Positions 3,071 to 59,115 of a stretch of 64,000 bases of DNA are shown piece after piece (the stretch's first letter is position 1; every line of letters begins with the position of its first letter). Location: positions 1 to 64,000 of the IMG/VR virus record IMGVR_UViG_3300032284_002843; one strand, given 5' to 3'. The DNA is from a virus. The notes below the pieces were generated by a model. That model was given only the letters and a program-made list of their open reading frames with translations, searched no databases and was not told where the DNA came from. Position numbers and translations under genes: made by a program.

Positions 3071-4462
3071 TTAGCTCAATGCAGGCTTGTTGCTGGCTTC
3101 TCGCACCTGATCAAACGTCCATTCCTGCATGATCTGTCCATTGCGGAAAACAACTCGAAGAGCATCTGCCCAGTCATACCCTGTATTTGCATGGACAGTT
3201 TCCCACTTACCATTTTCACGGATAAGAACCAACCGTCCCTTCTTGCTGCGCTTGCCTGTATCAGTAACAGGATCCTTGTAAACATCGCGCCATTCACCGT
3301 TAATGTACATAGCACTGCACTTCATAGCAAACTTTTGAGTATCACGGTTGACCATCTGCAACAGTCCACCGCCCATACCAAATGCAATGTTATCCGCACT
3401 CCATCCACGATCAAGAAGGTTAGTAAGGATAATCGGAAGGCTGTCAATGGTAATACCGTCTCCCTGGATTACACGGATGCAGCTAGGGAGAACCTTATAG
3501 CCCTTCTTGTTAACAGTGTAACCAAACTTCTCACCGAGACGTTCAATTACATCAACCGGAACTGTGTGAGGGTCTCCGCTGTCAGGACGAACAACTACAG
3601 TAGCACCGCTGTCAATAACAGCCTGTCGCAGCTCTTCACCCCAAATGTTGCTAGCTGCGTTCATAATGTCATAGCTATCGCTAACTACAGCAACCAGTGC
3701 ACCCGGACGGGCAAACTGCTTGAGCATATTTGCATATGCCTTGCTTTCATTTTCACGGCCCCAGCTAGTAATAGTGCTGTGCTCTGCAGCAGGAATACTA
3801 AAACCAGCCATGCCTGCACCGTAATAACGTCGAGCAGCCATTGCACCTGCAACAGTATCAGTACCCATGAAATTTACCAGGTGAGCAGCACCACCAATAG
3901 CAGCACTTTCATTGCTGCTAACACCGCGTGCACCAAAGTCATGCAACTTAAAGGGCAGCTGACCATCAACATCTTCCGAGCTCTCCTCAAGAGCAGAGCG
4001 AATAATCTGCTTGCAATGCCAGCTAAGGCTAGATACCGTAGTTGGATACCAAATAGCACGAAGCAAGCTGGTTTCAATAAAGGTAGTAAGCCAGAAGCAC
4101 TTGGGATCAGTATTCACAATAGTACACAGAACATTGTGAGTGGGGATTACAGTTCCCTCGGCTACGGCCTTAACTTCAACAGGAAGATAACCGTTATACT
4201 TGTTGAGGATGTATTCCCAACCATCCTTGTTGAACGGCTCGCCGTGTGCAGCCCAAAATTCAGCTGCCTCGTCAATCATAGCCTGCGTAATGGGCTTGCT
4301 CAGGTATTCCTTGAGAAACATCTGCAACCCAAAGAATACGGTGCGATCAAACTTGCCCCCGCGACTCTCAATATAGCTGTAAACATACTCGGTACCAGGC
4401 GGATACTGAAAGGCATGGCTAGCCTTGTACGAGTCCGTATTTAAAAGAAAGTTATCAAACAT
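3071..4462 (-). CDS. nadV: Nicotinamide phosphoribosyltransferase (NAMPT)
   Basis: TDSYKASH, LHDFGARG, PAAEHS, VSDSYD, VRPDSGDP, IQGDG motifs. Confidence 0.95.
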   Translation of the reverse strand: MFDNFLLNTDSYKASHAFQYPPGTEYVYSYIESRGGKFDRTVFFGLQMFLKEYLSKPITQAMIDEAAEFWAAHGEPFNKDGWEYILNKYNGYLPVEVKAVAEGTVIPTHNVLCTIVNTDPKCFWLTTFIETSLLRAIWYPTTVSSLSWHCKQIIRSALEESSEDVDGQLPFKLHDFGARGVSSNESAAIGGAAHLVNFMGTDTVAGAMAARRYYGAGMAGFSIPAAEHSTITSWGRENESKAYANMLKQFARPGALVAVVSDSYDIMNAASNIWGEELRQAVIDSGATVVVRPDSGDPHTVPVDVIERLGEKFGYTVNKKGYKVLPSCIRVIQGDGITIDSLPIILTNLLDRGWSADNIAFGMGGGLLQMVNRDTQKFAMKCSAMYINGEWRDVYKDPVTDTGKRSKKGRLVLIRENGKWETVHANTGYDWADALRVVFRNGQIMQEWTFDQVREASNKPALS

Positions 4463-19796: not shown

Positions 19797-20234
19797 TTAT
19801 TGACCCAGGCTGGCTTTTAAGAACCAACGCATTTTAGCATGTGCATCCAAACGCTCTGCGAGGTAATTCATAATAGCCTGATTATTTTCAGCTTCAGCTA
19901 ATACGAAAATCTTGTTTAATAGAAAAATCATGCGCTCGTGATCTTGCATGAGCTGTAGAACATAAGCTTTGCTGTCTAGTACAGGCTGGTCCGAAGAAAC
20001 AATACTCAATGACAACTGTTCTTGTGGTGTTAGTGTAACAAAAGAATCAAGTTCACGAATCTTCTCTGCGATGGTATCAACATTTTCCCAGAGATCTTCA
20101 TACTGCTGTTCGAACAGTTTGTGATATTCATAAAAGAACATACCTGTGATATTCCAATGAGCAGAATGCGTCTTTAGATATAAGACAAAATTACTAGCCA
20201 GCAATACCTTTAAACCATCTATTAAGCGATTCAT
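19797..20234 (-). CDS. dps: Dps/ferritin-like DNA protection protein
   Basis: HSAHWNITG..F..YH.LFE.QY, D.IAE.IR, H.K..WFL motifs. Confidence 0.9.
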   Translation of the reverse strand: MNRLIDGLKVLLASNFVLYLKTHSAHWNITGMFFYEYHKLFEQQYEDLWENVDTIAEKIRELDSFVTLTPQEQLSLSIVSSDQPVLDSKAYVLQLMQDHERMIFLLNKIFVLAEAENNQAIMNYLAERLDAHAKMRWFLKASLGQ

Positions 20235-20659: not shown

Positions 20660-21604
20660 TTACTTTCTTGAACTTTGTCTAGATTCGTCAAAATCCTTCA
20701 TTATAGGTAAGCTCATCATAGATTTAACATGATTAATATAGACAGATCCTAGCTCGCTGTAGCGACCAAGATGGCCAATCAATTGAAAACTATTAATGCC
20801 TTGACGTTCTTGTCGAAGTTTGGCCCTAGCTGCTCGGAAATCTTTATATGCAAAGTGTGTATTCAAATTATGAATATAGTCCGACACACTTTCCTGTGGA
20901 TTTTTATACGCACTATAACCTTTTCCTGCCGTCATACCAAAAAATGCATTAGTTTGACGAGCAATTTGGCTGCTTCCCCAACCGCTTTCTAGTGCACCTT
21001 GTGCTATTGCCATACGTTTTGGAACTATATCCATTCTTTCTAATAAGTCGGATAGATTTTTTGCACCATATGCTTCTAGCTTTGAGTCATACCATGCTCG
21101 TTCTTCAGCATCCATAGTATGCTTTGGATTTGAAATCTGAAGCAAATAACGTCTGTCAGCTAATATTTTAGCATTAGCTCTATCAACCAATGGTCCTATC
21201 GTGTCAACAAAGGCCTGCATCTTCTCATCAGCAGGTGCTTTATGTTGACCCCACAGAGCCTGTGGAAAATTATGATGTGTGTCAGCAGGCTTTTTCATCT
21301 TAGTTGCTTTTGCTAACAACTCGCCGGCGTGCTCAGGATCACGCTCTGGGCCAATTTTACGTCTAAGAAGTTCACCTGCGTGTTCAGGATCGCTGGGTTC
21401 ACGAAATTTATATGGACTTAGATCTTCCGGATCAGCAGGTTGCTCAATTGTTTTAGGTTGAGATACCATTGCTAAATCCGGTGAGATACCACTCGAACCC
21501 AAAACTCCAGCTCCAAATAATCCAGCAGCAGCAGCTTTTTTCAAAGCTTTCTTAATATCAGCTTCTAATAACTGATCTTCGGGCCAAACTTCATCTAAAC
21601 GCAT
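20660..21604 (-). CDS. Glucosaminidase (GH73, Bax/FlgJ-like) peptidoglycan hydrolase
   Basis: AIAQGALESGWG.S, N.FFG, Y..NLNTH.AY, YSE motifs; start re-placed at MRLDEV just after the release-factor stop. Confidence 0.8.
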   Translation of the reverse strand: MRLDEVWPEDQLLEADIKKALKKAAAAGLFGAGVLGSSGISPDLAMVSQPKTIEQPADPEDLSPYKFREPSDPEHAGELLRRKIGPERDPEHAGELLAKATKMKKPADTHHNFPQALWGQHKAPADEKMQAFVDTIGPLVDRANAKILADRRYLLQISNPKHTMDAEERAWYDSKLEAYGAKNLSDLLERMDIVPKRMAIAQGALESGWGSSQIARQTNAFFGMTAGKGYSAYKNPQESVSDYIHNLNTHFAYKDFRAARAKLRQERQGINSFQLIGHLGRYSELGSVYINHVKSMMSLPIMKDFDESRQSSRK

Positions 21605-21608
21605 TAAC

Positions 21609-22292
21609 TTATTTAGCGCTTGGCCATAGCTTATACATTTCGCCACGAAGATATTGTTCAGCAGTACATCTTTTATTTGTTTCATGATCTGTAGCTTGAT
21701 TATGTTGAAACTGGATGGTTCGTTTCTTATCCCCTCTTTGTCCGGAACCAACCTGTTGCCGACGTTGATCATTTAGAACACTAGAGTTCGCATGACTAAC
21801 ACGGTTTTTCAACCTAATTTTTAACTCTTCAATAGCCTGATGAAAGCTATTTTTACGCGATCTTGTCTGTGCTGTGGTGGTTATACCACTTGGACGATGA
21901 TGTACACGGCAACTGGCCTGTACTTTATTTCTATTTTGCCCACCTGGGCCGGTCCCACTAAACCAAGATATGTCACAATCGGCTTCTTTAAACTCAAAAG
22001 AAACAGCCGGATTATAATCTAAAACTGCAACAGTAACAGTGCTGGTATGTGTCCTACCACGTTTTTCCGTAGGTGGTACCCGCTGTATTCTGTGCCCACC
22101 GGCTTCATTAAGCCAGTCAGTGTATTTAGCACCTGTTACTTTTAATACTATACGACCAGGAACGTCGTGGACGCAAGAAATCAGTCAATTAAGTTTCTGC
22201 GCCATCTTAATATAAGATTTGGCTAAATCCTGTACAAATAACTTACTGTCATCACCGCCTTCTGCGGCTCTAATCTCAACGAAAATATCCAT
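21609..22292 (-). CDS. prfA: Class I peptide chain release factor, RF1-type, lacking domain 1, with in-frame UGA at codon 36
   Basis: AGGAGG RBS; MDIFVEIRAAEGGDDS...KMAQKLN*LIS...EAGGHRIQRVPPTEKRGRTHTSTVTVAV...GPGGQNRNK...GSGQRGDKKRT; all in one frame, with TGA at 22185-22187. Confidence 0.88.
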
Positions 22293-22302
22293 GTTATCCT
22301 CC

Positions 22303-22521
22303 TTATAGCTTACAATGGAATTCTAATCCTCCTTGTTTGCATGTGAACAAATAAGGATTGAACTTATTTTGATGTAGAGTCAACCTCAAACCTTGCGGCA
22401 ATTCAACTACTAGGACATCTGGCCTTTTTGAGATAATTAAAGCACGCACTATTTTCTCATTATTTGCACACAGTACATCAATGTGCTCGGGTTCTTTAAT
22501 AATTCTCAAATTTCTCGGCAT
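22303..22521 (-). CDS. Small hypothetical protein (paralog of 30080-30301)
   Basis: GAGG RBS; shares V.C...V...I.SK....VELP.G...GLEF pattern. Confidence 0.6.
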   Translation of the reverse strand: MPRNLRIIKEPEHIDVLCANNEKIVRALIISKRPDVLVVELPQGLRLTLHQNKFNPYLFTCKQGGLEFHCKL

Positions 22522-22676
22522 GATTACCTCACTAGACAATCAGTTGTTCTGCAATATAAACTAATTTTTATGATTTTTCAACTGATAAATAATGATGGTA
22601 ATTTGATTGCGCCAACAATCAAAAACTCAGCTTGGAGCACTGAGCTGTCCCACATTATTAGACAACTTGGAGTTAT

Positions 22677-23231
22677 ATGATGGAAAAAACATCAACATGT
22701 AAAAATCCTAAATGTGCAAAACTATTTATCGTAAAAAAATGGTCAAAAGGAATTTTTTGTTCAAATAGTTGTGCAGCTACATTTAATAACACAGGTAGAG
22801 TTAGGACTAAAGAAAGTAAAGCAAAAGTATCTATAAAAATTAAAAAACTTATCGCAGAAGGAAAGGCGAAGCCGCCGCCACAATTCAGCCAAAAAGGAAG
22901 ATCATGGAGAAAATCCCCAAATAGTAGTTGGTTAGAATATAAAAAATCTTGTGCCTTTTATACTCCATTATATATTTTGGAAAAAATAGAAAATTTCCAT
23001 CTAATTAATAAAATAGGATGGTATGATCCAAATACTAATCCAACTGGAGTTTCTAGAGATCATATGTTTTCTGTAATTGATGGATGGAAGAATAATATTC
23101 CGGCTGAAATAATAAGACATCCAGCTAACTGCATGCTTATGCCTATTTTAGAAAATAAAAGAAAAGGCAAGCGAAGTTCAATAACGTATGAAGAGCTACT
23201 ACAAAAAATAGAGAAATGGCGGTCTCGGTAG
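22677..23231 (+). mobile_element. HNH-type homing endonuclease
   Basis: C..C..F...FCS..C zinc motif; SRDH.FS...HPAN...N..K HNH-like core; inserted antisense next to tRNA genes. Confidence 0.7.
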
Positions 23232-24116: not shown

Positions 24117-24680
24117 TTAATAAGTTGCTTTAACTTTATCTGCCAGCTTATATTTAACAGCTTCTTTGGCACTGAGCCATACGTCCTTTTCAGGAAGTAG
24201 GATTTCTTTAATCTTTGATTCTGATAGGCCAGTACATTCTTTATACAATGCAATCATTTTTTCACTTAGCAAATCAACCTGCTTTGTTGTGGCTATTAAC
24301 TCATGTTCTTTGCCATATGTTCCCCAGCTAAACTGGTGGCTTAGAATATTTGTATTTGGTGTGAGTGTTCTATAACCCTTTGCACCACTCATAAATGTAA
24401 GCAATCCGCAGCTAGCAATCATTCCCAGTCCAACAGTATGAACTGGAATAGTGCTGCCCTTCATAACATCGATTAGGGCCAATGCACTTGGCAGCTCCCC
24501 ACCGGGGCTGTTAATAATCAAGGTTAAGTGTTTTGGTCTAACATTACTAGGTAACAGATTTTTTCTAAGAATAAAATCTATAACAGGTTTTACTGTTTCG
24601 CTGTTAAAATCTTCCATAAACAAATAGATATTATTCTCCTCAAGGCTAGCGCCATGAGACATTGCTTCTGGTTTTTTCAT
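24117..24680 (-). CDS. clpP: ClpP-like protease subunit
   Basis: INSPGG, G..ASCG (catalytic Ser), LSHQ, D.WLSAKEA..Y.L.D. Confidence 0.88.
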   Translation of the reverse strand: MKKPEAMSHGASLEENNIYLFMEDFNSETVKPVIDFILRKNLLPSNVRPKHLTLIINSPGGELPSALALIDVMKGSTIPVHTVGLGMIASCGLLTFMSGAKGYRTLTPNTNILSHQFSWGTYGKEHELIATTKQVDLLSEKMIALYKECTGLSESKIKEILLPEKDVWLSAKEAVKYKLADKVKATY

Positions 24681-30388: not shown

Positions 30389-30928
30389 ATGAAACTACAA
30401 GAAATTTCCGAATCAAAAGATCGACTTCAACTAGAAGAGCTACCTTATAAAGTGTCCGCTTTAGAACCTGAGATGGACAAAAAAACTGTTGATTATCATT
30501 ACAACACATTATCCAAGGGATATGTTGATAGGTACAATAACGGCGAAGGCGATCCAGCCTTTAACAAGGCCGGTGCACAGCTACATAATGTTTGGTGGCC
30601 ACAATTAATGGCTCCAAAAATCACTAATAAACCCACAGGTAAAAGCCTGGCATTTATCGAAAAACATTATAATAGTTTTGAAGATTTTAGAGATACATTT
30701 AATGAGACTGCTAATAAGATTCAAGGTAGCGGATGGTGCTACCTTGCTAAAAATGGCGAAATTAAAATGATTCAAAATCATAAATGGAAAAATGACATAA
30801 TCCTATTAATTGATCTATGGGAGCATGCCTTTGATCCATTTGAAACAAGAAAAGAGTATCTCAAGAAAATCTGGCGTTTAATCAACTGGTCTGTTATTAA
30901 CGATAGATTAAACGCCAGTGCAGATTAA
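30389..30928 (+). CDS. sod: Fe/Mn superoxide dismutase
   Basis: LPY..ALEP, HY, LHN.WW, QGSGW, DLWEHA; start at MKLQE after TATAAATA. Confidence 0.9.
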   Translation: MKLQEISESKDRLQLEELPYKVSALEPEMDKKTVDYHYNTLSKGYVDRYNNGEGDPAFNKAGAQLHNVWWPQLMAPKITNKPTGKSLAFIEKHYNSFEDFRDTFNETANKIQGSGWCYLAKNGEIKMIQNHKWKNDIILLIDLWEHAFDPFETRKEYLKKIWRLINWSVINDRLNASAD

Positions 30929-32379
30929 GTATCTATAATAGATTCGAAGTCTTTAAGCCTCTGCGGACTTTTAAGTCTTTGCAGAGCCTTAGCTTCGATC
31001 TGCCTAACACGCTCTCTGGTAACATTAAACTTCTTACCAATCTCTTCAAGAGTTGATTCGTCCATTGTACCAATGCCAAATCGCATTCTAATCACACGTT
31101 CTTCACGTGGATTCAAGTGTGATAGAACATTACTGATGACCTTAGTAATGTCATCTTGGTTAATCTTTTCAATGGTATCCATTGAGGCAGTGTCCTCAAT
31201 ATAATTACCAATGTTACCTTCCTCTTCGTCGCCGACAGGTGTTTCAATGGAAATTGGATCCTTTGCAACCTGCAACATCTTTTTTACCTTATCCTCGTCC
31301 ATACCACAAATTACTGCAAGCTCGGCATCGCTGGGCTCATAGCCTTTTGTGTTTACATGGTCCTTGATTGCCTTGTTAATCTTTTTAATAGCATCAATTA
31401 CATGGCTAGGAACTCGAATAATTTTATTCTGCTCGGTTGTAGCCTTGATAATGGCCTGCCTAATCCACCATGTAGCATAAGTGGAGAATCTATAGCCAAG
31501 CTGCCACTTAAACTTTTCAACAGCCTTTATCAAACCAATATTACCTTCTTGAACCAAATCAAGAATAGTTGTTGGATTGTTTTGATTGTATCTTTTAGCA
31601 ATGCTAACCACCAACCGCAAATTGCTGGTTACCATTCGTTGAATAGCCTCTTCTTTAACCTTGGCATGTCTACGTAGGTCTTTGACAACTTGGCGCAGTT
31701 CTTTTACTGTCATACCAGTTTTAGATTCAATTTCAGAAATCTTAATGTCACATTCTGCAATTTTAGCACCGTGTTTTGCCATAAGACTCTTGAACGTACT
31801 CTTTTCTTGAGCATAGAGATATGCTAGATTATCATTTTGCATATACAATGACAACCATTCTAAACGTTCAATTCCACAAGACTCGGCTAATCTTACCAAT
31901 TCACCATCTATGCTGGTCACTTGTCTGTTGTAAGCAATAACTTGATCCATTAAATGCGTGAGACTAGCGGGATTCAGCGGCAAATCGTTAAAAGCAGTAG
32001 TAAGCTGCTGTTTAATCTCAATATCACTAATATTCAAACGATATTGTTCGCAAAGAGTCTTAACTTTAATAAGTTGATCATTAAACTCCGTAGGAATAGT
32101 TTCATCGGCAGACAATTCAATATCAAATCTATCAACTGCATCCTGTGTGCTAGCCAACGCAGACTCAATCCAAGATGTCACAGTGTTAATAGTCAACGGG
32201 ATACCAAACAACCTATCAATGATAGCCTGTTTAGCCTGTTCAATGGTTTGACTAATTTCAATTTCTTGTTTATGCGTAAGCAGAGGTGCTTTGCCTACGT
32301 CTCTCAAATAAAGTTTTACTGGATCTTGATAGCCTTCTGTGTTTTTTACAGTCTTTTTCTGTTCTTTTGAACTACTCAT
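30925..32379 (-). CDS. rpoD: RpoD-type primary sigma70 factor (no region 1.1)
   Basis: DPVKLYLRDVG, NLRLVVSIAKRY, DLVQEGNIGLIKAVEKF, FSTYATWWIRQAI, TLEEIG..FNVTRERVRQIEAKAL. Confidence 0.95.
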   Translation of the reverse strand: MSSSKEQKKTVKNTEGYQDPVKLYLRDVGKAPLLTHKQEIEISQTIEQAKQAIIDRLFGIPLTINTVTSWIESALASTQDAVDRFDIELSADETIPTEFNDQLIKVKTLCEQYRLNISDIEIKQQLTTAFNDLPLNPASLTHLMDQVIAYNRQVTSIDGELVRLAESCGIERLEWLSLYMQNDNLAYLYAQEKSTFKSLMAKHGAKIAECDIKISEIESKTGMTVKELRQVVKDLRRHAKVKEEAIQRMVTSNLRLVVSIAKRYNQNNPTTILDLVQEGNIGLIKAVEKFKWQLGYRFSTYATWWIRQAIIKATTEQNKIIRVPSHVIDAIKKINKAIKDHVNTKGYEPSDAELAVICGMDEDKVKKMLQVAKDPISIETPVGDEEEGNIGNYIEDTASMDTIEKINQDDITKVISNVLSHLNPREERVIRMRFGIGTMDESTLEEIGKKFNVTRERVRQIEAKALQRLKSPQRLKDFESIIDT

Positions 32380-36791: not shown

Positions 36792-36865
36792 TGGTGCTTC
36801 GTGTGAGATTTGAACTCACCTTCGCAGTTTTAGAGACTGCTGGTCCGCCACTGACCCAACGAAGC
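36792..36865 (-). tRNA. Amber suppressor tRNA (anticodon CUA)
   Basis: GCTTCGT/ACGAAGC acceptor, A73-CCA; D stem GGTC/GACC; GCAGT-CT CTA AA-ACTGC; GTGAG-TTCAAAT-CTCAC. Confidence 0.9.
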
Positions 36866-36879
36866 GTATTGTTAATATA

Positions 36880-38061
36880 TTAGGTATAAACCGTGGTGTC
36901 AACCTTATCTAGCAACTGTTCTTTGGTAGCAGTATAGCCACTTTTAGCCCAGATGTGTTTCAACGCTTGGATAACTTTGCCATAATGCGGGCCAGGTTTC
37001 ATGCCCAGCTTCATTAAATCAAAGCCATTAACTGGAAACACAGGGATAGGCCATTCTGCCAAGACAGCTTGATCAAAGGCATCAATATCAAAGATTTTGG
37101 CCATTTTGCATACCCAATCTCGTCTAACGCCATCTACAGCCAACAAATAATAGGGATTAAAATCGGTTTTATACTGATGAGCCTCTACAAACTCAGCCCA
37201 ATCCTGTTCCTCTTTACTGGTTTTCCATTTCTTCAGCAGCTCTCTGGTGATTACGGGTCCATACAACGTATGCAGAATCGCAATAGGATCAGGCTCGCGG
37301 CTGTGCAGTCTTTCAGCGTTATAGATCCAGTCACATTCTGAAGGCAAATCAATAAATTCTGCAACATCATACTGATGGATTTGCAAAATCATTTTTGGAC
37401 CATATGGTCCTGCTAGAATCTGCCGGATCTCACTCCATACACGCTCACGGCTGATAGATTTTAAGCCAGCGGCATTAGCCATAATATGCTTGGCGTCAGC
37501 AGGATACTCCGTTCGATCACGTTCTGGATCAATGCCATACCTAGCACGGAACCTGAACCAACGAAGGATTCGTAGATAATCCTCTTTGATACGTTGATCA
37601 GCATTGCCAACAAAACGCACGCGATAATTCAGCAAATCATTATATCCGTCAAAGGGGTCGATCAGTACACCGTCGAAGGTAAAACTCATAGCGTTGATCG
37701 TAAAGTCACGCCTTGCGAGATCTTCCAACCAATCTCTCGTATATGCCACAGTGGCTCGCCTGCCGTCCGTTGCAACATCCAAGCGCAGGCTGGTGATTTC
37801 ATATACTCCACTGTCCAGTACCACCGTTATAGTACCGTGATCAATACCGGTGGGAATATGTCGAATGTCCGCATTTTGATAGATAGAGATCTGTTCAACA
37901 GGATCAGCGTCGGTGCAGAGATCAATATCCTTAGGCTGTTTACCAGCCAAGTGATCTCGCACACAACCGCCCACAAATCTCAAATCAAAACCTTGAGTTT
38001 GAAAGAGATTACGAAGATTCTGCAAATCTTGATTAAGTAACGGATCAATATTAAAAATCAT
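36880..38061 (-). CDS. cca: tRNA nucleotidyltransferase (CCA-adding enzyme, class II)
   Basis: VGGCVRD, KDIDL, DLARRDFTINAM, EDYLRILR motifs. Confidence 0.92.
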   Translation of the reverse strand: MIFNIDPLLNQDLQNLRNLFQTQGFDLRFVGGCVRDHLAGKQPKDIDLCTDADPVEQISIYQNADIRHIPTGIDHGTITVVLDSGVYEITSLRLDVATDGRRATVAYTRDWLEDLARRDFTINAMSFTFDGVLIDPFDGYNDLLNYRVRFVGNADQRIKEDYLRILRWFRFRARYGIDPERDRTEYPADAKHIMANAAGLKSISRERVWSEIRQILAGPYGPKMILQIHQYDVAEFIDLPSECDWIYNAERLHSREPDPIAILHTLYGPVITRELLKKWKTSKEEQDWAEFVEAHQYKTDFNPYYLLAVDGVRRDWVCKMAKIFDIDAFDQAVLAEWPIPVFPVNGFDLMKLGMKPGPHYGKVIQALKHIWAKSGYTATKEQLLDKVDTTVYT

Positions 38062-56397: not shown

Positions 56398-59115
56398 ATG
56401 TATATTGATGCGTTTTTAGAAAGAGAAAAGAACACAATTTTAGTTGTTGAAAGAGATAAGAATGGCAAAAGAGCATTCAACAACTTTTCCACAAAATATG
56501 TTGTATATTGGCCAAGTCCCAGAGGCAAATATCCAAATATCTACGGTGAACTTTGTGAAAAATTTCAAACATCAAAAATAAAAGAGTTTCAACGTGAGGT
56601 AAATGTATTACCTAAGGTAAAACTACATGAAAGTGACATAAATCCAATTTTCCGTTGTCTATATGACAACTATAAAGGACTACCTGTTCCCAATTTGCAT
56701 GTGGCGTTCTTTGATATTGAAACTGACTTTGATCCGGCACGCGGCTTTTCAACACCCGATGACGCATTTAATCCTATCACAGCCATTTCGGTATATCTGA
56801 ATTGGCTTGATAGAAATTTTACATTGGTTATTAAACCAAAAGGCATGAGTGTAGAAGACGCACAAGCAATATGTGAAAAATTTGAAGATACTGTGCTTTG
56901 CAGTGACGAAAAAGAATTATTAGATATGTTCTTACGTCTCATTGAGGATGCAGACATAATGAGCGGGTGGAATTCAGAAGGGTTCGATATACCTTATATC
57001 CATAATCGTATCGTACAAATCCTAGGTAAAGAAGAAACTAGACGTCTATGTCTTTGGGGTAAGTTCCCTAAAAAACGTGAATATGAGGCATACGGAAGAT
57101 TAACTACAACTTACGATACAGTCGGAAGAATTCATCTAGACTATTTGCAACTTTATAGAAAGAATACATACCACGAAATGCATAGTTATAGACTTGATTT
57201 CGTAGGAGAATATGAAGTTGGTGAAAAGAAGGTTCCATATGAAGGCAGTCTAGATAGATTGTACAACAACGATTTTGCTAAATTCATTGAATATAATAGA
57301 CAAGACGTTATGCTGCTTGTTAAGATTGACAGAAAGAATAAATTCATTGAACTAGCTAACAATCTAGCACATGAAAACTGTGTGTTGCTGCAAACTACCA
57401 TGGGCGCAGTGGCTCTTATTGACCAAGCGATTGTAAACGAAGCACACGATCTGGGATTTGTTGTACCAAACAGACAACGAACCGATGATAACCGCGATGA
57501 TGAAGAAAATAAACATTCAAACAGCGTTGTTGGTGCTTATGTGGCAGATCCCAAAGAAGGTGTGCATAAATGGATAGGTGGCGTTGATATTAACAGTCTA
57601 TATCCAAGTTGTATTCGTGCACTCAACATGAGTCCAGAAACAGTAGTTGGACATATTCGTCCAGAGCATACTGAAAAGCTTATAGAAAAACGCATCAAGC
57701 TTGAAAAGAAAAGCTTTGCAGATGCATGGAATGCACAGTTCGGAACACTAGAATATTCGCAGGTAATGAATCAAGACATAACTCCTGTGACTATAGATTT
57801 TGAAGATGGTTCAGTCGTTACTGTAAGTGCCAGTGATGTTTATGATCTAGTCTTTAAATCTGGCAAGCCTTACATACTAAGTGCCAACGGTACTATCTTT
57901 ACTATGGAAAGAGATGGTATTATTCCACATTTGTTGTCCAGATGGTATGCTGAACGTAAGCAACTTCAAGCCGAAATGAAGAAATACAATGAACTTGCAG
58001 AAAATGCTCAAACAGAAGATGAAAAGAAAGAATATAAAAAGCAAGCTGCATTCTATGATCAAAGGCAGTTGATTAAAAAGATTCTTCTAAACAGCTTGTA
58101 CGGCGCCGTTGGTAATCCAGGAAGCAGATTCTTTGATCCACGTATTGCACAAAGCGTAACATTAAGCGGGCGCTGCATCGTCAAGCACATGCAAAGCAAG
58201 ATTAATGAAATTATAACAGGTGATTATAATCATCTTGGATTAGCTAATATATACGGCGATACAGACTCTGGTTATTTCTCGGCATATCCAGTAATGAAAG
58301 ATCAACCAGAGTTTTCTAATTTTGAGTGGACTAAAGAGAATGTTGTAGAGCTGTATGATCAAATAGGTAACCTAACTAATCAAAGCTTTCCTGAATTTAT
58401 GAGATCTGCATTTAATTGTCCAGAAAAGAATGGAGCTATTATTAGAGCAGCCAGAGAATTATGTGCATCAAGTGGGTTATTCATCACTAAGAAAAGGTAC
58501 GGCGTTCTTATCTATGACAAGGAAGGCAAGCGCAAAGACACCAATGGTAAAGCTGGTGAAATTAAGGCTATGGGTCTTGATCTCAAGAGATCAGATACTC
58601 CTAAAGTAGTGCAGGACTTTTTGAGTGAATTGCTAGTAGACGTATTAACGGAAAAGTCTGAAGATGAAATACAAAACAAAATCAAAGCATTTCGTAAAGA
58701 GTTCAGATCATGGCCAAGTTGGATTAAAGGATCACCAAAACGTGCTAATAAAATCACACATTTTGAAGGTTTAATGTCATCCACTCCGTCTGCTACTGTC
58801 CCAGGACATGTTAGAGCTAGTATTAACTGGAATAGTCTCAAAAAGATTTATAACGATCACTATTCTATGCCTATACAAGATGGATTTAAGGTAATTGTTT
58901 GCAAACTAAGACCTAATCCAACTGGCCTAACAAGTGTTGCTTATCCAGTTGATGAGCTTAATCTTCCAACATGGTTTAAAGAATTACCCTTTGATGACGA
59001 TGCTATGGAAGAAGCACTTATAGATAAAAAGGTCGGAAATCTACTTGGTGTGCTCAAGTGGGATCTTGACAAGAACAAAGATAACAACAGTTTTGATGAT
59101 TTATTCAAATTTTAG
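56398..59115 (+). CDS. Family B DNA polymerase
   Basis: FDIETD, GWNSEGFDIPY exonuclease motifs; DINSLYPS, KILLNSLYG, YGDTDS, KKRY. Confidence 0.97.
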   Translation: MYIDAFLEREKNTILVVERDKNGKRAFNNFSTKYVVYWPSPRGKYPNIYGELCEKFQTSKIKEFQREVNVLPKVKLHESDINPIFRCLYDNYKGLPVPNLHVAFFDIETDFDPARGFSTPDDAFNPITAISVYLNWLDRNFTLVIKPKGMSVEDAQAICEKFEDTVLCSDEKELLDMFLRLIEDADIMSGWNSEGFDIPYIHNRIVQILGKEETRRLCLWGKFPKKREYEAYGRLTTTYDTVGRIHLDYLQLYRKNTYHEMHSYRLDFVGEYEVGEKKVPYEGSLDRLYNNDFAKFIEYNRQDVMLLVKIDRKNKFIELANNLAHENCVLLQTTMGAVALIDQAIVNEAHDLGFVVPNRQRTDDNRDDEENKHSNSVVGAYVADPKEGVHKWIGGVDINSLYPSCIRALNMSPETVVGHIRPEHTEKLIEKRIKLEKKSFADAWNAQFGTLEYSQVMNQDITPVTIDFEDGSVVTVSASDVYDLVFKSGKPYILSANGTIFTMERDGIIPHLLSRWYAERKQLQAEMKKYNELAENAQTEDEKKEYKKQAAFYDQRQLIKKILLNSLYGAVGNPGSRFFDPRIAQSVTLSGRCIVKHMQSKINEIITGDYNHLGLANIYGDTDSGYFSAYPVMKDQPEFSNFEWTKENVVELYDQIGNLTNQSFPEFMRSAFNCPEKNGAIIRAARELCASSGLFITKKRYGVLIYDKEGKRKDTNGKAGEIKAMGLDLKRSDTPKVVQDFLSELLVDVLTEKSEDEIQNKIKAFRKEFRSWPSWIKGSPKRANKITHFEGLMSSTPSATVPGHVRASINWNSLKKIYNDHYSMPIQDGFKVIVCKLRPNPTGLTSVAYPVDELNLPTWFKELPFDDDAMEEALIDKKVGNLLGVLKWDLDKNKDNNSFDDLFKF

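What the first reader, a model, noticed from the sequence alone, without database searches (positions are those of the whole stretch)
21609..22292. RF1-type release factor with an in-frame UGA at a conserved Trp position
Seen: a 227-codon frame with a strong RBS and intact EIRA.GG, GGHRIQRVPPTE (PxT), HTS and GGQ motifs, interrupted only by TGA at 22185-22187 in the context AAT TGA CTG. Both shifted frames close quickly, so only readthrough gives product. Known: bacterial RF1 has Trp here (E. coli YAEARRW), UGA-C is a leaky context, and prfB uses an internal UGA for autoregulation by frameshifting. Inference: expression is conditional on weak RF2 activity, with Trp inserted at UGA. The protein also lacks N-terminal domain 1, so it may be RF3-independent or a rescue-type factor.
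Basis: partly seen in the sequence, partly recalled or inferred. Interest (0 to 1): 0.85.

Follow-up and report, generated by a model that had tools for sequence, protein, structure and literature searches.

The report
UGA-gated short phage release factor
A large phage carries a shortened copy of the bacterial protein that ends translation at UAA/UAG, and its gene is interrupted by a UGA stop that every related phage copy examined also keeps, so the full protein can be made only when ribosomes fail to stop at UGA.

Summary
On the minus strand (22292..21609) lies a 227-codon RF1-type release-factor gene without domain 1, with a strong Shine-Dalgarno site and intact PPT and GGQ motifs. It has one in-frame TGA at codon 36 (22187..22185), where solved and canonical RF1s have Trp.

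The TGA is neither an error nor a pseudogene mark. All 84 IMG/VR loci that span the site have TGA and none has TGG. These collapse to 57 representatives below 90% identity, GC 29-62%. Both sides of the stop are under purifying selection (dN/dS 0.06 and 0.11). The +4 base is never T, and the true stop is TAA in 52 of 57.

The phage contig uses the standard code, with 30 of 166 ORFs ending in TGA. No other gene in it is gated in this way.

Bacterial relatives carry a prfB-like +1 frameshift site (CTT TGA C, sometimes CTT TAG C) at the same place.

Best reading: programmed UGA readthrough, probably inserting Trp, ties the supply of the factor to failure of RF2-dependent termination. Conservation is shown; sensing is inferred.

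This scan has noted the same gate in at least eight other genomes. I found no description in the papers I searched.

The parts
22297..22304 (-). Shine-Dalgarno AAGGAGGA, four bases before the ATG. It overlaps the TAA (22305-22303) of the upstream 78-codon ORF.
   Evidence: read directly
22188..22292 (-). Codons 1-35. In the model these form strand 2-11 and helix 13-33 of the codon-reading superdomain, and they hold the invariant E6, E11, G12, G13, D15.
   Evidence: dN/dS 0.060 across relatives
22185..22187 (-). In-frame TGA, codon 36, at the Trp column of RF1. The +4 base is C (22184).
21612..22184 (-). Codons 37-227: rest of domain 2, the GGQ domain and domain 4. PPT is at 22076-22068 and GGQ at 21944-21936. 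No start codon in frame before 21812.
   Evidence: dN/dS 0.112
21609..21611 (-). Terminal TAA. This is the codon used by 52 of 57 representative relatives.
22303..22539 (-). Upstream 78-codon ORF of unknown function. It abuts the release-factor gene, so the two are probably one transcription unit.
   Evidence: no family match
20660..21604 (-). Downstream gene starting 4 bases after the TAA. It has a glucosaminidase (PF01832) domain and looks like a lysis or cell-wall enzyme.

Best explanation
The gene encodes a phage-borne class-I release factor of RF1 type. It consists of domains 2-4 only and has a codon-reading head of the UAA/UAG kind.

Its mRNA carries a programmed in-frame UGA at the Trp-36 codon. 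Ribosomes that terminate there, through host RF2, make a 35-residue peptide. Ribosomes that read the UGA through in frame make the active 227-residue factor. The most likely reader is tRNA-Trp pairing near-cognately, which would restore the ancestral Trp.

The amount of factor therefore rises when RF2-dependent termination at a weak UGA-C site is slow and falls when it is efficient. This is a translational gate of the prfB kind, worked by readthrough instead of a +1 shift, and set by another factor (RF2) rather than by the product itself.

A plausible purpose is to add UAA/UAG termination capacity when the host's termination capacity runs short during infection. That would free RF2 for UGA stops.

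Shown: the anatomy, the RF1-type fold, the strict conservation of the stop, selection on both halves, and the standard code of the phage.

Inferred: Trp insertion, dependence on RF2, and the purpose.
For: 1. Conservation. TGA in 84 of 84 IMG/VR loci spanning the column (81 distinct contigs), 0 TGG. After clustering, 57 representatives below 90% identity remain, with pairwise identity down to 41% and locus GC 29-62%; all have TGA.
2. Both halves are coding in one frame. dN/dS is 0.060 before the stop and 0.112 after it. No start codon follows for 124 codons.
3. Leaky design. The +4 base is A 39, C 10, G 8, T 0. +4U is reported to lower readthrough (abstract of PMC5289835 in the listing). TGA followed by C is described as a weak stop (passage of PMC12421855).
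4. The true stop is TAA in 52 of 57, against 274 of 506 neighbouring ORFs. The real end is thus read by both RFs, while the internal stop is RF2-only.
5. Not another code. Table-11 ORFs cover 88-93% of the contig, 30 of 166 ORFs end in TGA, and 181 of 506 neighbour ORFs in relatives end in TGA. This is the only ORF in 136 kb with a start-less open stretch behind an in-frame stop.
6. RF1 type.
   - NCBIfam: prfA 178.7 bits, prfB 84.3, prfH 42.6.
   - PDB by sequence: RF1 122 bits, RF2 65.
   - AF2 model: pLDDT 87.9.
   - Fold search: ribosome-bound RF1 at TMq 0.79-0.83; PrfH 0.57.
   - Residues Q70, P73, P74, T75, H82, T83 and G117-G118-Q119 are invariant or nearly so in 41 sequences.
7. The same family elsewhere uses other stop-codon gates.
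   - 39 of 80 bacterial-genome loci have a +1 site at the same place: CTT TGA C 26, CTT TAG C 7, CTT TGA G 4, CTT TAG G 1, CTT TAA C 1. Of these, 29 of 39 have an SD-like tetramer in the 12 bases before CTT.
   - Public huge-phage records have TGA at codon 44, at codon 52, or at 39 and 52.
8. No opal-suppressor tRNA near the gene. None lies within 6 kb in any of 89 viral loci. None was found among the tRNAs I read in three complete relatives of 279-364 kb; one further complete relative has two. A phage-borne UCA tRNA is therefore not the general key.
Against: - No expression data of any kind. No RNA run holds the stretch. Readthrough level, inserted residue and dependence on RF2 are all untested.
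- An RF1-type factor cannot itself terminate at UGA, so making it when RF2 fails does not directly cure the failure.
- In the frameshifting relatives the gate codon switches between TGA, TAG and TAA, even among near-identical proteins (L121, L129, L142). This speaks for sensing termination capacity in general, or for plain attenuation, rather than RF2 specifically.
- In the readthrough clade, TGA may be forced simply because it is the only stop that a Trp tRNA can misread.
- The contig is a fragment (CheckV completeness 32%), so the phage may carry tRNAs I could not see.
- Two short relatives (L092, L093) have TAC and no gate.
Confidence: 0.6

Rival explanations
1. Fixed attenuator. The UGA only sets a constant, very low yield (the basal readthrough fraction) of a factor that is harmful in excess. 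It sits in a strongly translated operon, and nothing is sensed.
For: - RF overproduction lowers fitness in B. subtilis (passage of PMC12421855).
- The SD is strong and the gene is packed between neighbours, so translation initiation may be hard to tune otherwise.
- Gate codons vary (TGA, TAG, TAA) among frameshifting relatives.
Against: - A weak start site would give the same result, and TGA to TGG is one transition. Yet 0 of 84 loci have TGG, across 29-62% GC.
- The frameshifting relatives use the SD plus CTT-stop architecture. In prfB this architecture is described as responding to RF concentration (passage of PMC12421855).
- The bias to a TAA terminal stop fits a design that separates RF2-only from RF1/RF2 signals.
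Confidence: 0.2
2. Timed switch opened by a phage or phage-modified tRNA. An opal suppressor, or a tRNA-Trp altered so that it reads UGA well, is made at a set time of infection and turns the factor on. This would parallel the way stop-recoded phages are proposed to turn on late genes.
For: - One complete relative (G003) has two UCA-anticodon tRNAs.
- All four complete relatives encode their own tRNA-Trp(CCA).
- In 4 of 9 distinct phage tRNA-Trp genes, ARAGORN's fold has a mismatch at an end of the anticodon stem.
- A 4-bp anticodon stem is reported to let tRNA-Trp read UGA (abstract of PMC13092985 in the listing).
- 62 of 89 viral loci have tRNA genes within 6 kb of the gene.
- The window's contig is only about a third of the phage.
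Against: - No UCA tRNA and no tRNA-Trp in the 136-kb contig.
- No UCA tRNA among the tRNAs read in G002 (46 read against 46 Rfam matches), G004 (45 against 49) or G005 (39 against 41).
- 5 of 9 phage tRNA-Trp genes have ordinary 5-bp stems.
- A general opal suppressor would also read through the many TGA stops of the phage's own genes.
Confidence: 0.12
3. TGA is an ordinary Trp codon because the phage or its host uses genetic code 4.
For: Gene callers gave full-length 222-233-residue proteins with W at this place on contigs of about 1 kb. This is what a code-4 model would produce.
Against: - Standard-code ORFs cover 88-93% of the contig, and 30 of 166 end in TGA.
- 181 of 506 neighbour ORFs in relatives end in TGA.
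- On long contigs the same gene is called as a 35-residue piece plus a piece of about 166-188 residues.
- No other gene in 136 kb needs TGA read through.
Confidence: 0.02
4. Sequencing error, recent pseudogene or selenocysteine codon.
For: A single internal stop is the usual mark of a pseudogene, and UGA can encode selenocysteine.
Against: - 84 of 84 relatives keep the stop, and dN/dS is well below 1 on both sides.
- The possible source run agrees at word depth about 20, and an independent run shows no change at the site.
- RNAalifold finds 0 conserved pairs in 30 sequences from -30 to +92. The window's own 63 bases from the TGA fold no better than shuffles, z +0.14. Homologues have Trp here. 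So there is no SECIS-like element.
Confidence: 0.01

Closest known systems
prfB (RF2) autoregulatory +1 programmed frameshift (SD-like element, CUU UGA C)
   Same: - A class-I release-factor gene is interrupted early by a weak UGA, so synthesis depends on failure to terminate there.
- Bacterial members of the window's own family carry the same CTT-stop-C site, with an SD-like element 0-4 bases upstream in 29 of 39.
   Different: - In the window the reading frame does not change. There is no CTT T slippery codon and no internal SD, so the event must be in-frame readthrough.
- The product is RF1-type. The stop is therefore read by another factor (cross-regulation), not by the product.
- The site lies in domain 2 at a Trp codon, not in domain 1.
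- For prfA, the passages I read of PMC12421855 report no evidence of programmed frameshifting.
Mimivirus/Megavirus class-I release factor gene (Jeudy et al. 2012, PMC3521657; abstract read)
   Same: A virus-encoded release factor whose translation passes internal stop codons by recoding (a readthrough and a frameshift). The authors interpret this as a bacterial-like autoregulatory device.
   Different: That protein is of the eukaryotic/archaeal eRF1 type, in a virus of amoebae. Here the factor is a bacterial RF1-type protein without domain 1, in a phage, with a single readthrough.
PrfH (RF-H), the domain-1-less release-factor homologue coupled to RtcB
   Same: It lacks domain 1 and keeps a codon-reading-like domain and GGQ (passages of PMC1586002 and PMC6514570).
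   Different: - The window's protein scores 42.6 bits against the prfH model (cut-off 166.65) but 178.7 against prfA.
- The fold match to PrfH on a damaged ribosome (9mor) is TMq 0.57, against 0.79-0.83 for RF1.
- No RtcB neighbour was seen.
- No recoding came up for prfH in the passages that my word searches of those papers returned.
RF1 genes of stop-codon-recoded phages (code-change module of TGA-recoded Jade phages; Borges et al. preprint, passages read)
   Same: A phage-encoded RF1 lying near tRNA genes and a lysis-type gene. It is proposed to support UAA/UAG termination while UGA is being read through.
   Different: Those modules are described as written in standard code without internal stops, and the phages recode many late genes. 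Here the phage is standard-code throughout the contig, and the only in-frame TGA is in the RF1-type gene itself.

Membership tests
Bacterial class-I release factor, RF1 type (prfA) | PCRF and RF-1 domains with the GGQ motif | tested here: met
   Pfam PCRF 76.9 bits and RF-1 57.5 bits, both over cut-off. GGQ at residues 117-119.
Bacterial class-I release factor, RF1 type (prfA) | RF1-type codon-reading residues (PxT tripeptide, with the Gln before it and the His-Thr after it). The roles of these residues are recalled, not tested. | tested here: met
   QRVPPTE...HTS. These residues are invariant or nearly invariant in 41 sequences. PPT is present in 83 readthrough-type loci.
Bacterial class-I release factor, RF1 type (prfA) | N-terminal domain 1 (about 105 residues) | tested here: not met
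   The protein starts at profile position 105 of 347 (NF001859) and at residue 89 of Thermotoga RF1. Only 10 open codons lie upstream of the match.
Bacterial class-I release factor, RF1 type (prfA) | Score over the NCBIfam equivalog cut-off | tested here: not met
   178.7 bits against a cut-off of 400; 171.3 against 423.25.
Bacterial class-I release factor, RF1 type (prfA) | Peptide release at UAA and UAG on the ribosome | not testable with these tools
   Needs an in vitro release assay.
prfB-type autoregulatory recoding | Conserved early in-frame stop in a release-factor gene | tested here: met
   84 of 84 loci; 57 of 57 representatives.
prfB-type autoregulatory recoding | +1 shift on CUU U with an upstream SD-like element | tested here: not met
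   The window continues in frame 0 and both other frames close. The feature is met in 39 bacterial relatives.
prfB-type autoregulatory recoding | The gate codon is read by the encoded factor itself | tested here: inconclusive
   By the tripeptide rule (recalled), a PxT head reads UAA/UAG and not UGA. Specificity was not measured.
PrfH (RF-H) | Score over the TIGR03072 cut-off, and an RtcB partner gene | tested here: not met
   42.6 bits against 166.65. Pfam on the window's neighbours, and on 10 of the commonest neighbour families in 57 relatives, gave no RtcB.
Stop-codon-recoded phage (code 4) | Many genes with in-frame TGA, poor coding density under table 11, a UCA-anticodon tRNA | tested here: not met
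   Caveat: the contig is about 32% of the genome.
Selenoprotein gene | SECIS hairpin just after the UGA; Cys or Sec in homologues | tested here: not met
   0 conserved pairs; z +0.14 in the window; Trp in homologues.

The most novel reading that the evidence does not exclude
The short factor reads its own gate. Under this reading the PPT-type, domain-1-less factors are bacterial-type release factors of relaxed specificity (UGA as well as UAG and UAA), and every gate in the family would then be true negative autoregulation, as in prfB.

Three observations hint at this:
- Near-identical frameshifting relatives swap TGA, TAG and TAA in the gate (L121, L129, L142). In contrast, prfB is reported never to use TAG (passage of PMC12421855).
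- The family has a tripeptide of its own (PPT or PPN), distinct from canonical P[AQVTI]T.
- Stop-codon gates arose at several positions: codons 36, 39, 44 and 52, plus +1 sites.
Probability: 0.12. Interest if true: 0.9.

Novelty: new variant of a known kind. Interest (0 to 1): 0.72.

Why it matters
Regulation of a release factor by a stop codon inside its own gene is a textbook case known for RF2. The passages I read say that it has not been shown for RF1 (PMC12421855).

Here a large family of phage RF1-type genes shows the same principle, worked by readthrough. Their bacterial relatives show it worked by a prfB-like frameshift, including amber versions.

If the gate senses termination capacity, these phages carry a feedback device on a core step of host translation. 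The gate sequences would then be natural reporters of RF2 and RF1 activity.

There is also a practical consequence. Standard gene callers split this gene into two pieces, or silently switch to code 4 on short contigs. The family is therefore mis-annotated in public protein sets.

Tried and rejected
- Nucleotide search of the locus against 50,697 phage records: no match.
- Other genetic codes for the contig: rejected.
- Other stop-gated genes in the 136-kb contig, in particular TAG-gated ones that the CUA-anticodon tRNA might serve: none by two screens. The runs of in-frame TAG on the minus strand at 69-77 kb are antisense shadows of plus-strand genes. Gates within the first few codons of a gene would escape these screens.
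- Conserved RNA structure after the stop: none. A subset of relatives folds better than shuffles (11 of 57 with z below -2, mononucleotide shuffles). I did not follow this up.
- Rfam on the whole window: only two tRNAs reach threshold.
- Promoter and terminator scans: no more sites than in shuffles.
- Conserved partners of the frameshifting bacterial genes: none beyond synteny within one genus.
- Common origin of the suppressor-type tRNAs of the window and relatives: 56-77% pairwise identity, which is uninformative.
- RNA evidence: no RNA holder listed. All four runs laid are contigs.
- Literature. Five full-text searches. Passages read in PMC12421855, PMC1586002, PMC6514570, PMC7824862, PMC7162821, PMC7918605 and the Borges preprint. 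Abstract of PMC3521657. None describes an in-frame UGA or a frameshift in a phage or short RF1-type gene.

Full report
**What is there.** The finding's coordinates hold a gene on the minus strand.
- The ATG is at 22292-22290, preceded by AAGGAGGA at 22304-22297.
- There are 35 sense codons, then TGA at 22187-22185 in the context AAT TGA CTG, then 191 further sense codons and TAA at 21611-21609.
- The +1 frame closes after one codon and the -1 frame is closed just upstream.
- After the TGA, the first ATG, GTG or TTG in frame is the TTG at 21812, which is codon 161. The part that holds PPT (residues 73-75) and GGQ (117-119) can therefore be made only by reading the TGA through in frame.
- The gene is tightly packed. 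The stop of an upstream 78-codon ORF overlaps its Shine-Dalgarno site, and a glucosaminidase-domain gene starts four bases after its TAA.

**What the protein is.**
- Pfam finds the C-terminal half of PCRF (residues 2-88 on profile positions 101-194 of 194) and the RF-1 domain.
- NCBIfam ranks prfA (178.7 bits) far above prfB (84.3) and prfH (42.6). All three are under their cut-offs, because about 105 N-terminal residues (domain 1) are missing.
- Against solved structures, RF1 chains score 122 bits and RF2 chains 65. Residues 4-217 align to 89-311 of Thermotoga RF1, with residue 36 opposite a Trp.
- An AlphaFold model built on 41 sequences has mean pLDDT 87.9. It superposes on ribosome-bound RF1 at TM 0.79-0.83, on free RF1 at 0.56 and on PrfH at 0.57.
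- In the model, residues 2-33 form the first strand and helix of the codon-reading superdomain. The 35 codons before the stop are thus part of the fold and not a leader.

**The stop is a kept feature.**
- A first scan of IMG/VR gave four relatives at 45-52% identity, from loci of 32-63% GC. All have TGA in the same column and diverged flanks.
- A second scan with their alignment found 315 relatives, of which the best 80 were kept.
- Of the 89 viral loci held, 84 span the column (81 distinct contigs, since three contigs came back twice). All 84 have TGA and none TGG. The other five are matches to the GGQ domain alone.
- Clustered below 90% identity, this gives 57 representatives including the window, with pairwise identity down to 41%.
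- Among pairs 75-95% alike, dN/dS is 0.060 for the 35 codons before the stop and 0.112 after it. Synonymous sites are near saturation, so only the order of magnitude counts.
- The base after the stop is A 39, C 10, G 8 and never T.
- The terminal stop is TAA in 52 of 57. Among neighbouring ORFs of 100 codons or more in the same loci, it is TAA in 274 of 506 (binomial p about 1e-9, not corrected for relatedness).
- The possible source run agrees at the site at word depth about 20. A freshwater metagenome of another study holds a 582-base contig about 93% alike across the site, with no change listed there.

**Not another genetic code.**
- The window is part of one 136,279-base virus record of 37% GC. 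IMG/VR classes it as linear, and CheckV puts it at 32% complete.
- Table-11 ORFs cover 88-93% of it. Of 166 non-overlapping ORFs, 113 end in TAA, 30 in TGA and 23 in TAG.
- In relatives, 181 of 506 neighbour ORFs end in TGA.
- Two screens of the whole record for an in-frame stop followed by a long start-less open stretch, not shadowed by another ORF, return this gene alone.
- Public protein sets show the consequence. On contigs of about 1 kb the gene appears as a full-length protein of 222-233 residues with W, most likely because the caller chose a code-4 model. On long contigs it appears as a 35-residue piece named release factor plus a piece of 166-188 residues.

**The wider family.** A scan of one genome per prokaryote species gave 80 loci:
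- 20 canonical prfA genes with domain 1. TGG is in the column in 18 of them.
- 14 matches to the GGQ domain alone.
- 5 short genes with in-frame TGA. Three have it in the Trp column (a Pararhizobium, a Rhodovibrio and a Rhodospirillales genome). These fall inside the phage clade.
- 2 short genes without any gate (TAC in the column).
- 39 short genes, mostly of Myxococcota, in which residues 1 to about 35 are in one frame and the rest in the +1 frame. The junction is:
  - CTT TGA C in 26;
  - CTT TAG C in 7;
  - CTT TGA G in 4;
  - CTT TAG G in 1;
  - CTT TAA C in 1.

  It lies at the query-equivalent codon 37 in 36 of the 39, and at codon 47 or 52 in three. In 29 of the 39 an SD-like tetramer lies in the 12 bases before CTT, most often three bases away.

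That junction is the architecture of the prfB site. A FastTree tree rooted on the canonical RF1s puts all short factors in one clade (support 100). Within it:
- the readthrough type is one group of 60 rows (57 phage, 3 from bacterial genomes; support 99);
- most frameshift types are another group of 33 rows;
- the window's nearest relative is L010, at 62% identity.

This is a quick tree with several long branches, so I use it only for these coarse groupings.

More distant short factors in four public huge-phage records have TGA at codon 44, at codon 52, or at codons 39 and 52. One has none. The three gated ones end in TAA.

Stop-codon gates have thus been placed in this family at several positions and by two mechanisms.

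**How the UGA could be read.**
- No tRNA with a UCA anticodon lies in the contig or within 6 kb of the gene in any of the 89 viral loci, although 62 of the 89 have tRNA genes there.
- I read the tRNA clusters of five large relatives (279-364 kb; four complete by CheckV). One has two UCA tRNAs. Three have a CUA tRNA. The four complete ones each have a tRNA-Trp(CCA).
- Near-cognate reading by tRNA-Trp, host or phage, is therefore the only route open to all members, and it would restore the residue that RF1 has at this place. That Trp is the residue inserted at UGA in enterobacteria is stated in a passage of PMC7918605.
- No conserved RNA structure follows the stop.

**Mechanism and its limits.**
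- Programmed in-frame readthrough: I take this to be well supported.
- Yield tracks RF2 activity: this is inferred from the RF2-only nature of UGA, the weak context, the TAA terminal stop and the prfB-like sites in relatives.
- Two facts weigh against a strictly RF2-specific sensor. The frameshifting relatives accept TAG and TAA in the gate, even among near-identical proteins. And an RF1-type factor cannot terminate at UGA.
- A reading that covers both facts is that the gates report shortage of termination capacity. Extra UAA/UAG capacity would then free RF2 for UGA.
- The fixed-attenuator and phage-tRNA-switch readings remain open.
- The bolder reading, that the factor reads its own gate, is not excluded by sequence alone.

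**Novelty.**
- Earlier notes of this scan describe the same UGA-gated short phage release factor in at least eight other genomes. I treated them as leads and re-derived the counts here.
- In the papers I could search, phage RF1 and RF2 genes are reported without mention of internal stops. Programmed frameshifting is said not to be evident for prfA. A survey of release-factor evolution contains none of the words phage, frameshift or readthrough.
- The nearest published parallels are prfB itself and the recoded eRF1-type gene of Mimivirus.
- I class the finding as a new variant of a known kind.

Noticed in passing
window 36792-36865 (-), next to 36880-38061 (-): A tRNA with a CUA anticodon (amber-suppressor type; Rfam tRNA 59.2 bits) lies directly downstream of a CCA-adding enzyme gene. 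CUA tRNAs also occur in L064 and in three of the five large relatives that carry the gated factor. They are no more alike than unrelated tRNAs (56-77%). No TAG-gated gene was found in the 136-kb contig. The base rate in other jumbo phages is unknown.
   Followed up: partly
L100-L155 (39 loci of bacterial genomes, e.g. L150:6001-6679): Short RF1-type genes of Myxococcota and a few other bacteria need a prfB-like +1 shift at CTT TGA C, CTT TAG C or CTT TAA C at the place of the phage TGA. An SD-like element lies upstream in 29 of 39. They have no conserved neighbours.
   Followed up: partly
L211, L030, L214, L088 (tRNA-Trp genes of relatives): In 4 of 9 distinct phage tRNA-Trp(CCA) genes found in phages that carry the gated factor, ARAGORN's fold shows a mismatch at one or both ends of the anticodon stem (3-4 pairs instead of 5). 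A recent abstract links 4-bp stems to UGA reading.
   Followed up: partly
57 representative viral loci, within 4 kb of the factor gene: Recurrent same-strand neighbours in relatives:
- a DSP-like phosphatase family, in 31 loci (under the Pfam cut-off);
- a metallophosphoesterase, in 15;
- an HD_4 hydrolase, in 8;
- an AAA_33 kinase, in 6.
Together with the tRNA genes this looks like an RNA-repair or translation-maintenance neighbourhood. None of these families is next to the gene in the window.
   Followed up: partly
whole record G000; window 56398-59115 (+): The record is a linear fragment, 32% complete by CheckV. Its family-B DNA polymerase is 46-48% identical to those of the jumbo phages Sinorhizobium phage Phosso and Agrobacterium phage Atu_ph07. 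The phage is therefore probably several hundred kb long.
   Followed up: partly
proteins P0005, P0007, P0009, P0054, P0092, P0094 and cluster members P0129-P0142: Public protein sets hold this gene in two forms. One is full-length with W, from contigs of about 1 kb. The other is a 35-residue piece plus a C-terminal piece, from long contigs. This is an annotation artefact of callers that may switch to code 4.
   Followed up: partly
L092:6001-6666, L093:319-996: Two short factors from one Myxococcales MAG have TAC in the Trp column and no stop or frameshift. They are the only ungated short members among the loci held.
   Followed up: no
window 3071-4462 (-), 19797-20234 (-), 24117-24680 (-), 30925-32379 (-): Auxiliary genes of the phage: nicotinamide phosphoribosyltransferase, a ferritin/Dps-like protein, a ClpP-like protease and a sigma-factor-like protein.
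   Followed up: no
window 22677-23231 (+): A lone plus-strand ORF (phrog_23051, no Pfam match) sits between the release-factor operon and the tRNA-Arg and tRNA-Gly genes. NUMOD3 homing endonucleases occupy similar places in 7 relatives.
   Followed up: no
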